From positions 40,548,001 through 40,612,000 of the forward strand of contig OZ024757.1 in the NCBI GenBank assembly GCA_964016885.1: a stretch of 64,000 nucleotides of DNA. Direction: 5' to 3'. Position numbers and translations under genes: made by a program. The stretch comes from Eledone cirrhosa. Lineage: Eukaryota. The notes under the pieces were generated by a model, which was given only the letters and a program-made list of their open reading frames with translations, was not told the DNA's origin and ran no database searches. Positions within the stretch are counted from its first letter, which is position 1. Each line of letters opens with the position of its first letter. Positions 46,905 through 62,750 of the stretch are shown here, one piece after another.

Positions 46905-47115
46905 ATAAAAGGTAAACAGAAATAACAACACAATCGGTACAGTATATAGAAGGGATATACTAAGTTAACGCTTGATATAGCAGGTTTCGGACGCTCGTCC
47001 TTCATCAGAAGAAAGAATGAGAAATAAAATAGATTGAGGAGACGGACGGGTTGGAATTGGGAAAAATGTGTTTAGATAAAAATAACAAGTCCATTTATGT
47101 TGAGATCTCTTGCAA
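46905..47115 (-). mobile_element. Family A element, hammerhead 3' half deleted
   Basis: Minus strand TCTT-CTGATGA-A-GGAC GAGC GTCC-GAAAC then jumps to CTGCTATATCAAG; a stub of the same element end lies at 36307-36360. Confidence 0.8.
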
Positions 47116-56384: not shown

Positions 56385-56877
56385 TGTATATATATAAATA
56401 TATATACAATATATATAATATACATATGTATTTCTGGATTGCGTCCAGAAATAGCTGTCTTACATACATAGAACCAGTAATGCACTGGTGTCAATTAAAG
56501 GACTTCCAACCCCCACTTCCAACTGCTTTAACAGTTCCCGTCACGAGAGAAGAGGATTGCTGAAAAATATTTATTACAATATAGATCTGGAAATATGGAA
56601 GAAAGCCATGTAAAGATCAGATCCTATAGGATTGCCTTGTGCTCTTAAAACGATATGAGAAGAAGTATCTGAAGCTATATGAAAATATCAACGAAATCTG
56701 ATAGTAAACAAATATCTTGAGCTATACCATATTGATATCTAGATGTATCTCACGGTCTTAGAGGATATCGTTAAGCGTTTCTTTTGGAAAGATATGACTT
56801 CAGCTTTAATATACATTTAGTCAAACTTACGTCAATACATCAATACATTTTTACATGTATACATATATATATACACA

Positions 56878-56923
<46 letters not shown>

Positions 56924-56944
56924 TTCATATATATACACACAAGC

Positions 56945-56975
<31 letters not shown>

Positions 56976-58000
56976 CACACATTCATATATATATATACAT
57001 ATATATATACATAGGATTAGAATACTAGAGCGTGTTTGAGTCAAACACCCTCTTCGTATTATAGAAATGACAGTAAAAGGTATAGCTCAATGCAGTTAAA
57101 CAGAGCCAACAAATTTTAATATTTTAATATTGTAATATGTAACATTATGATATTTAGACTTTACATATCGTGTTAGATGTCTGTATATTTTTTCTGTAAC
57201 AACATATTTTTTCTGTAACATCATAATTGTTCCCTGTACCAATATAATTTTTTTGAGTATTATTGTATTATATTATATGATTGATATTTCCTCATTTATT
57301 ATGTAACCCAGTATGAATCATGTTGTGCATATTGTTTATGGTAATTGTTAATATAATGTTAACATTTTATCATTGTATTTCACTGTGACATCTATATTGT
57401 TTCTGTAAATTAACCGGGGATTATCTATTCTACTTTATTATATTGTATTGTAGTATATAATTTTGTTGTTTATTATTTGTTATAAGTGTTTCTTGTAATT
57501 ATATCATATTATTGCCTCATGTATATTGGGTAGATGTATTAGCATTATTTTCACTATTACCATGCTTATTTTTGATATTTTTGATGTTCAAACTTCCAAT
57601 AGGGCTTAATTTCTGTGTAATAGAAAATAGATATGTGTATTGTAATATGTGTGTGTGTGTGTGTGTGTGCACATATATACATGTATATATTGTACCTTTT
57701 GATTTTTAATTTGGAATTTTAATGTTGGTATAGATATATTATTATTATAATGTATTATACTGTGTTATATATAATTCCTGCTCTATATAACCAAATTTGT
57801 TTAGATTTAAGTTGGTGGCTTTGGACTATATTTGTAATATGGTTCTTAATGTTATCTACATCCTTAGTTATTATAATTTTATTATTTTTATCTTCATTTT
57901 TATTATCGTATATCTTTGTAAGACATTAGTGTATGTACACTCCATATTCTTCAGAGTTTCTGGCTTGTATCTGCCGAAATTACCTCTTGTTGTTTTGATT

Positions 58001-58038
58001 GCCCTGATGAGTCCTTAATAGGACGAAACATTGTCGGC
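58001..58038 (+). ncRNA. Canonical type I hammerhead ribozyme (GUC site)
   Basis: GCC-CTGATGA-GTCC TTAATA GGAC-GAAA-C ATT-GTC-GGC: all core nucleotides, G-C-closed 4-bp stem II, short stem III, stem I GCC/GGC; AATAAA follows at 58040-58045. Confidence 0.85.
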
Positions 58039-58086
58039 TAATAAAAACTTTTGATGTATTAAAGGATTCTTTGTTTTACTCTCTTA

Positions 58087-62750
<4,664 letters not shown>

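What the first reader, a model, noticed from the sequence alone, without database searches (positions are those of the whole stretch)
58001..58045. Textbook GUC hammerhead immediately followed by a poly(A) signal
Seen: every conserved core base is present, stem II is GTCC/GGAC, cleavage is predicted after C58035, and AATAAA starts 5 nt later. It ends ~1 kb of non-microsatellite AT-rich sequence (57010-58000). Inference: the 3' terminus of a PLE or retrozyme transcript, and the best candidate for an active ribozyme here. Stem III is only 2 bp with a 3-nt loop, so it may need dimerisation or loop-stem I tertiary contacts.
Basis: partly seen in the sequence, partly recalled or inferred. Interest (0 to 1): 0.72.

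Follow-up and report, generated by a model that had tools for sequence, protein, structure and literature searches.

The report
Hydra-Penelope end with twin start hairpins
The hammerhead-ribozyme motif is real but is the standard end motif of a young Penelope-like jumping gene with about a thousand identical copies; this copy is a truncated mirror-image insertion, and such copies end just before two small conserved hairpins that likely tell the copying enzyme where to start, while self-cutting and use of the poly(A) signal are untested.

Summary
The type I hammerhead at 58001-58038 and AATAAA at 58040 are as described. The 38-mer has 1,018 exact copies. It is the pLTR ribozyme of a young, protein-coding Hydra-clade Penelope-like retrotransposon (4,862-nt unit, intact RT + GIY-YIG ORF elsewhere), not a retrozyme and not special to this locus. 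The window holds a dead, head-to-head insertion in (TA)n: arm 57114-58088 plus a 104-nt inverted tail, 57013-57116. The ribozyme is not the copied 3' end: 0 of 100 copy ends in four families lie at the cut, none has poly(A), and 96 stop 3-9 nt before one of two bulged GCTC...GAGC hairpins. All 25 inverted pairs use one site per arm. Best model (inferred): a reverse-transcriptase dimer binds the two hairpins and primes from both nicked target strands; paired hammerheads likely cut out and circularise the unit. AATAAA recurs after Hydra hammerheads more than chance (11 of 37), but its use is untested. The hairpins were not found in print; this scan noted them before on other DNA, including this genome.

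The parts
58001..58038 (+). Type I hammerhead ribozyme motif of the element's pLTR; predicted cut after C58035; palindromic stem III ACA-T-TGT (58028-58034)
58040..58045 (+). AATAAA at hammerhead positions 1.5-1.10; predicted to pair in the extension of stem I with 57992-58000; possible poly(A) signal; T58042 is position 1.7
57114..58088 (+). Main arm: 5'-truncated 3' UTR/pLTR of the Hydra-clade element, ending at site S1 (+53 after the cut); no ORF remnant
57013..57116 (-). Inverted arm: the tail alone (+50 to +153, the start of the element's 5' UTR), ending at site S2; overlaps the main arm by 2-3 nt of A/T
   Evidence: L052; L002
57085..57106 (-). Hairpin H1 (GCTC, upper stem, TT bulge on the 3' side, GAGC), 7 nt past site S1 in the intact element; its twin H2 lies 7 nt past S2 and is absent from this insertion
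56850..57012 (.). (TA)n-rich microsatellite, left flank (target)
58089..59330 (.). (TA)n-rich microsatellite, right flank (target)

Best explanation
The motif is the pLTR hammerhead of a young Hydra-clade Penelope-like retrotransposon, and this locus is a truncated head-to-head insertion whose two ends lie just before two conserved bulged hairpins that likely position the element's reverse transcriptase. Shown: the family, its 4,862-nt unit and intact ORF, the two end sites, their position before hairpins H1 and H2, one site per arm in inverted pairs, and near-identity of the two arms. Inferred (about 0.7): an RT-endonuclease dimer binds H1 and H2 in the RNA, nicks both strands of a (TA)n target, and each nick primes cDNA at the TA-rich patch a few bases 5' of one hairpin; the two cDNAs join by microhomology. 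Here the S2 strand stopped after 104 nt and the S1 strand after 975 nt. Inferred (about 0.45): two hammerheads of one transcript pair through the palindromic stem III, cut out one unit, and ligation gives a circle that puts H1/H2 behind the 3' UTR; without this, or a strand jump, each round of copying would lose one hairpin. AATAAA would end a separate pool of transcripts (mRNA) that is not the template for the copies seen (about 0.45). This copy likely cannot move again: it has no ORF, and no hairpin follows the main arm.
For: 1,018 exact copies, 0 for the reversed control. Four of 20 stretches fetched carry an unbroken 915-916-codon frame behind hammerhead and tail. The protein has the Hydra motifs and its model's best matches are telomerase RTs. 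Copy ends relative to the cut, with hairpin starts: family A H1 60/H2 161, ends 52-53 (20 of 30) and 152-157 (10); B 56/148, ends 50-52 (9 of 25), 140-145 (13), 3 read through; C 57/168, ends 51-53 (12 of 25), 160-163 (12), 1 read through; D 54/186, ends 47-49 (11 of 25), 178-180 (9), 4 elsewhere, 1 read through. B-D were predictions made after note, and S2 follows H2 over a 38-nt range. 90 of the 100 ends are followed by TA-rich sequence. 25 of 25 inverted pairs are S1+S2. Arms differ by a mean of 2 within pairs against 15.9 between, own partner closest in 10 of 12. In Hydra-like metagenome contigs the hairpin is in 28 of 48 upstream windows, against 11 of 314 ORF windows, 23 of 4,800 shuffles and 5 of 48 for the mirror form; upper-stem pairs vary while staying paired in 77 of 95 and 57 of 66 at positions 2 and 3. 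Read by eye, it is also in published coral and sea-cucumber consensus sequences. Sequence upstream of ORF-bearing copies runs 9 to 2,550 nt past the hammerhead with no pile-up at the cut. Precedent: two internal RT starts, both strands nicked and extended, predicted dimer (PMC11167929).
Against: No biochemical or RNA evidence for any step. The lower stem GCTC/GAGC was fixed by my search pattern, so its pairing is not tested by covariation, and position 1 of the upper stem was required to pair. S1 sits near +50 in all four families, so it could be set by distance from the hammerhead or by common descent; only S2 separates the explanations. Four of the 20 S1 ends in family A are one duplicated insertion (L149-152). 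Samples are the best-scoring 25-30 loci of hundreds, so young copies are favoured. The circle test is mixed: tandem pLTRs differ by 0-4 in 6 of 10 copies but by 6-14 in 4 of 10, and the upstream pLTR of L081 is identical to the downstream one of L085, which suggests a second template. In the anole element, hammerhead mutants did not affect insertion in vitro and no reads ended at the cut. The double-hammerhead dimer (-28.5 kcal/mol) is predicted only slightly better than two inactive monomers (-27.8) and worse than the best cofold (-30.6).
Confidence: 0.7

Rival explanations
1. Same element and hairpins, but a linear template with an LTR-like strand jump: RT starts at H1/H2 in the 5' UTR, copies to the RNA 5' end, then jumps to the 3' pLTR of the same or another RNA that ends by polyadenylation at this AATAAA. 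The hammerhead would be dispensable or would only trim the 5' end.
For: A[AT]TAAA starts within 9 nt of the cut in 11 of 37 distant contexts against 1 and 0 in the next two windows, shuffle mean 1.2, maximum 6 of 2,000; A56 and TAAA are invariant in 19 aligned copies; it is the only AATAAA in the 2-kb 3' UTR; 4 of 10 tandem copies have unlike pLTRs; hammerhead not needed in vitro in the anole element.
Against: Upstream extents up to 2,550 nt with no fixed stop need repeated jumps. The 11 contexts include related lineages (for example L318, L327, L328, L329), one upstream window also held 5, the one-per-UTR count is what chance gives (0.7 expected), and the ORF holds 5-6 AATAAA.
Confidence: 0.3
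2. Copies come from rare multi-unit tandem masters read through as long linear RNA; the hammerhead is a passenger or works late, and nothing is circularised.
For: One master would suffice; model proposed for the anole element; Naiad elements spread without canonical hammerheads.
Against: No three-hammerhead same-strand array among the first 100 of 1,018 listed matches; three tandem copies have pLTRs 0, 0 and 2 apart while their nearest outside relatives are 8, 8 and 31 apart, which points to homogenisation at insertion; the core and stems are kept with a compensatory change.
Confidence: 0.2
3. One reading: an active monomer ribozyme that, with the poly(A) signal, forms the 3' end of a local transcript or retrozyme.
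For: Intact core, Schistosoma-like stem II and six-base loop, U at 1.7 and A at the end of loop 2 as in the contact described in PMC11875169; invertebrate retrozyme hammerheads with a 2-bp stem III do cleave as monomers (PMC7229834).
Against: Not tandem and not short; identical to 1,017 other copies; catalytic fold 4.5 kcal/mol above the inactive rod; U1.7 is predicted paired and is U in only 11 of 37 relatives; cleavage would separate AATAAA from the upstream RNA.
Confidence: 0.1
4. The hairpins act as DNA elements (promoter or endonuclease recognition), and the ends are set by the TA-rich patches alone.
For: The fly Penelope endonuclease needed the tail in DNA for recognition, as cited in PMC11167929; ends show TA microhomology.
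Against: Upper stems change in pairs, use G-U pairs, and the bulge is strand-specific (28 against 5 of 48); many other TA-rich patches in the same UTR are not used.
Confidence: 0.12

Closest known systems
Hydra clade of C-terminal-endonuclease Penelope-like elements (Craig et al. 2021, PMC8557442; passages, section 11, supplement parts 2, 52, 53 read)
   Same: RW(K/R), DKT, CxCX5C, CxxC and CxH motifs; canonical hammerhead with palindromic stem III near the 3' end; (TA)n targets; inverted 5'-truncated copies; one-sided tail.
   Different: Unit 4.86 kb with a 2-kb 3' UTR against generally under 3 kb; about 135-150 extra disordered residues; tail about 101 nt against 30-40; hammerhead sequence unlike any in File S2, including Hydra-1_Obim. 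The main text has no mention of hairpins or polyadenylation.
Poseidon element of the green anole, PAc (Frangieh et al. 2024, PMC11167929; parts 1-2 of 4 read)
   Same: Two internal RT start sites whose interval is the tail; AT-rich targets; both strands nicked and extended; hammerhead upstream of the starts.
   Different: There the starts lie within one AC-rich stem-loop inside the ORF; here they lie in the 5' UTR about 101 nt apart, each in front of its own copy of one hairpin. Different clade.
PLE hammerheads and the circle model (Cervera and De la Pena 2014, PMC4209133; parts 1-2 of 4 read)
   Same: Type I motif in pLTRs, short palindromic stem III, proposed dimer cleavage and circular template.
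   Different: This motif is canonical rather than minimal. The copy-end data add a reason for the circle (loss of a hairpin per round) that the paper does not give.
Non-LTR retrozymes (PMC7229834, passages; 10.64898/2026.07.22.740005, parts 1-3 of 5)
   Same: Type I hammerhead with a similar stem II.
   Different: Retrozymes are non-coding tandem repeats of about 170-400 nt; this is a coding 4.86-kb element and the window copy is single.
Mammalian Clec2 hammerhead (as summarised in PMC6765202, passage)
   Same: Cut site lies just upstream of a poly(A) signal, so cutting would remove the signal.
   Different: Clec2 is a split, single-locus host motif; this one is a mobile-element repeat with no sign of locus-specific use.

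Membership tests
Type I hammerhead ribozyme | Conserved core CUGANGA, GAAA, NUH | tested here: met
   (31.7 bits, E 1.1e-5; gathering score 34 not reached)
Type I hammerhead ribozyme | Three stems with open stem I | tested here: met
   96.3% of 189 cells paired in 19 copies; first pair of stem I changes on both sides in 9 of 19 (one or few events)
Type I hammerhead ribozyme | Loop 1-loop 2 tertiary contact | tested here: inconclusive
   U at 1.7 invariant in 19 genome copies but in only 11 of 37 distant contexts; predicted paired in the lowest-energy fold
Type I hammerhead ribozyme | Site-specific self-cleavage | not testable with these tools
   needs in vitro assay; folding energies only
Hydra-clade PLE | Single ORF, telomerase-like RT followed by C-terminal GIY-YIG | tested here: met
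   IVY...YIG near residues 786-803; Pfam found no RT or GIY-YIG in P0001 itself but GIY-YIG in homolog P0002
Hydra-clade PLE | RWK motif and DKT in place of DKG | tested here: met
   RWR (K 58, R 44 of 104 aligned) and DKT (criteria)
Hydra-clade PLE | CxCX5C linker; CxxC and CxH around conserved E and N; no CCHH | tested here: met
   C767, C769, C775; C865, C868; E871; N884; C893, H895 nearly invariant; the one Cys inside the GIY-YIG core is not conserved
Hydra-clade PLE | Canonical hammerhead in pLTR and insertion in (TA)n | tested here: met
   (90 of 100 ends followed by TA-rich sequence)
Hydra-clade PLE | Placement in the Hydra clade of an RT tree | not tested
   no reference PLE proteins were available as tool sequences; assignment rests on motifs
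Non-LTR retrozyme | Non-coding short tandem repeat with a hammerhead in each unit | tested here: not met
   unit 4,862 nt and coding; single copy in the window
Poly(A)-ended retroposon 3' terminus | Copies end in a poly(A) tract shortly after the signal | tested here: not met
   ends at two sites further on, followed by (TA)n

The most novel reading that the evidence does not exclude
Hydra-clade Penelope elements carry a two-site RNA address, twin bulged hairpins kept from corals to this genome, that loads the two halves of a telomerase-like RT dimer so each primes from one target strand; the hammerhead pair exists to circularise the unit and so restore the hairpins that every round of copying loses, with the adjacent AATAAA switching the same RNA between mRNA and template.
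Probability: 0.35. Interest if true: 0.75.

Novelty: new member of a known kind. Interest (0 to 1): 0.5.

Why it matters
The motif as reported is ordinary: hammerheads are universal in Hydra-clade pLTRs. What matters is what its surroundings show. How Penelope-like elements choose internal start sites, why insertions have a one-sided tail and mirror-image arms, and what the hammerhead is for are open questions. A 22-nt hairpin that predicts 96 of 100 copy ends, a strict one-site-per-arm rule, and young copies with intact ORFs make all three testable with one purified protein and a few RNA mutants. The RT is the sister of telomerase, so a small portable RNA signal that fixes where copying starts would be of mechanistic interest.

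Tried and rejected
Retrozyme: rejected (unit length, ORF). Cut site or poly(A) site as copied end: rejected (0 of 100). Cut site as 5' end of ORF-bearing copies: 22 of 30 run upstream through the hammerhead, 8 begin at +49 to +244, none at +1. Avoidance of premature AATAAA: not seen. Pfam gave no RT or endonuclease hit on P0001 and the PDB sequence search gave nothing; the fold search settled it. Rfam miRNA matches are microsatellite artefacts. No ORF remnant of this family in the window. My hairpin pattern misses short-loop cases (L309, L326, L327, L350), so 28 of 48 is a lower bound; 48 of 78 metagenome loci had enough upstream sequence. In one search, 25 of 40 diverged stretches did not match the family-A motif (truncated or other families); 13 of the 15 that did went into alignment A2 with 6 others. 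The search found another large Hydra family that I did not follow. Lunse et al. 2017 on dimer cleavage is not held and is known to me only through the review. No notes near this locus.

Full report
Observation. Rfam Hammerhead_1 scores 31.7 bits, E 1.1e-5, under its gathering score of 34. Shuffled windows gave no strict match in 200 trials. Stem III reads ACA-T-TGT, a palindrome round one base, like most Hydra hammerheads in File S2 of PMC8557442.

Parent element. The 38-base motif occurs 1,018 times without mismatch in the 3.0-Gb genome, with 0 for the reversed control. The last 389 nt of the window arm differ by 2 from its nearest relatives, so the family is young. Longer copies carry an ORF on the same strand. 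Four of 20 stretches fetched around ORF hits hold an unbroken 915-916-codon frame; the unit from cut to cut is 4,862 nt and the ATG is 231 nt after the cut. The protein P0001 has RWR, DKT, YRDD, CxCX5C, IVY...YIG, CxxC, E, N and CxH, nearly invariant in 104 aligned homologs; these are the Hydra-clade marks given in section 11 of PMC8557442. Pfam and PDB sequence searches found nothing useful, but the predicted structure (mean pLDDT 81) matches telomerase RTs first. I did not build an RT tree.

Anatomy of this locus. The insertion spans 57013-58088 in (TA)n. The main arm 57114-58088 is the last 922 nt before the cut plus 53 nt after it. The other arm, 57013-57116 on the minus strand, is the next 104 nt of the element, its tail, and nothing more. 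Inverted truncated copies and one-sided tails are known PLE features. No ORF remnant and no second hammerhead of this family lie in the window.

Where copies end. With samples anchored at or upstream of the hammerhead, 105 copies of four families were aligned to a read-through copy; 5 read through and 100 ended (sequences). None ended at the cut (nearest +5) and none showed poly(A); 90 were followed by TA-rich sequence. 96 ended 3-9 nt before one of two hairpins of the form GCTC, upper stem, two-base bulge on the 3' side, GAGC. I saw the hairpins in family A and diverged copies (note) and then sampled families B, C and D; the second end site moved with H2 (+154, +141, +163, +180 against H2 at +161, +148, +168, +186). 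Apparent ends include TA microhomology, so true starts may be a few bases earlier. Four family-A ends are one duplicated insertion, and all samples are the best-scoring loci of many.

Pairs. Of 25 distinct head-to-head pairs with both ends at a site, all had one arm at S1 and one at S2, the window copy among them. Arms differ by a mean of 2 within a pair and 15.9 between pairs, own partner closest in 10 of 12. Both arms thus come from one event and probably one template.

Generality of the hairpin. In Hydra-like metagenome contigs it is in 28 of 48 upstream windows, 11 of 314 ORF windows, 23 of 4,800 shuffles, and 5 of 48 in mirror form. Among 95 distinct interiors, upper pairs 2 and 3 are paired in 77 of 95 and 57 of 66 with many pair types, and the bulge is TT in 72; the lower stem and first upper pair were imposed by the pattern. 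In L350 the downstream copy passes into (TA)n just before H1. By eye, both hairpins open the Hydra-1_Ajap consensus and H1 is in the tails of Hydra-2_Ajap and Hydra-2_Amil; I saw no clear case in Hydra-1_Obim and only a variant in Hydra-1_Crog.

Mechanism. Shown steps are the positions and counts above. Inferred: following the anole element, where RT starts at two internal sites, both strands are nicked and extended, and a dimer is predicted (PMC11167929), I propose that each subunit binds one hairpin and primes at the TA-rich patch in front of it (0.7). A consequence, by inference: a copy started at S2 keeps H1 but not H2 at its 3' end, and one started at S1 keeps neither, so linear copying loses a hairpin each round. 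Yet 44 of the 100 ends are at S2, and full-length copies with tails exist (L081, L082, L083). H2 must therefore be brought behind the 3' UTR again, by a circle cut out by two hammerheads (0.45; model of PMC4209133), by a strand jump (0.3), or from rare multi-unit masters (0.2). For the circle or jump: upstream extents of 9-2,550 nt without a fixed stop and tandem pLTRs 0-4 apart in 6 of 10 copies. Against a simple circle: 6-14 apart in 4 of 10, with one upstream pLTR identical to another locus, and no need for the hammerhead in the anole assay.

Will it cut? Untested. The core and stems are kept across families, with a compensatory change in stem I (these controls ignore relatedness). The monomer's catalytic fold is 4.5 kcal/mol above an inactive rod; the double hammerhead is about equal to two rods. 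Invertebrate retrozyme motifs with a 2-bp stem III do cut as monomers (PMC7229834), so monomer activity is not excluded. Nothing marks this copy as more active than the others.

AATAAA. It lies after the cut, in the predicted extension of stem I, and covers position 1.7, which makes a tertiary contact in some hammerheads (PMC11875169). It is kept in five of the six genome families looked at and is ATTAAA in the sixth, and A[AT]TAAA starts within 9 nt of the cut in 11 of 37 distant contexts against about 1 by chance, though several are related. The ORF strand holds 5-6 other AATAAA. It may end mRNAs, or be a by-product of stem I; it does not mark the end of the copied RNA.

Literature and earlier notes. 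Searches and a term search of the main text of PMC8557442 found no description of the twin hairpins, of the one-site-per-arm rule as a count, or of the AATAAA enrichment. Subscription papers are mostly not searched, Lunse et al. is not held, and I did not see the supplementary figures of PMC11167929, which show the stem-loop at the anole start sites and may bear on novelty. This scan's unreviewed notes report the same hairpin idea on other DNA, two of them in this genome, and similar hammerhead-AATAAA cases; I had the idea and its main test before reading them.

Verdict. A real hammerhead motif in a dead copy of a new Hydra-clade family. The hairpin rule is well supported as a pattern and untested as a mechanism. 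Interest 0.5.

Noticed in passing
window 69 and 438 (minus strand); related degenerate copy at 47008 (minus): Two minimal hammerhead motifs (stem III A-CG-T) of one other family, same strand, 369 nt apart; a better candidate for dimer cleavage or a retrozyme than the motif reported.
   Followed up: no
window 63670 (minus) and 63677 (plus); related copy at 1430 (plus): Two hammerheads of another family joined head to head at their cores; the plus arm is followed by an ACTC...TT-GAGT hairpin, the H1 form with its outer pair changed on both sides.
   Followed up: no
window 49334 (minus) and 62996 (minus): Two further hammerhead-like motifs of other repeat families; the 62996 family recurs in several fetched loci.
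   Followed up: no
L283-L305 (family D) and L042:4884-4922: High-copy Hydra families whose hammerhead core departs from the consensus: CCGATGA (U4C) in most family-D copies and CTGGCGA in L042; possibly inactive or variant cores in families that still spread.
   Followed up: partly
P0001 residues about 512-646 (L082): Low-confidence insertion of about 135-150 residues between RT thumb and endonuclease linker, absent from nearly all 103 homologs.
   Followed up: no
L096:5801, 6111, 6421; L114:32, 498: Tandem hammerhead repeats 310 nt and 466 nt apart, retrozyme-like, unrelated to this family.
   Followed up: no
L149-L152: One insertion carried on a roughly 10-kb tandem duplication, with a GTT cleavage triplet.
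   Followed up: partly
window 57013-57116; L068; L126: Arms or copies whose 5' truncation falls at +49/+50, the S1 position, as if the S2 strand stalled where the S1 strand began; too few to be significant.
   Followed up: partly
G000, one search list: Another large Hydra family with many open 713-codon frames.
   Followed up: no
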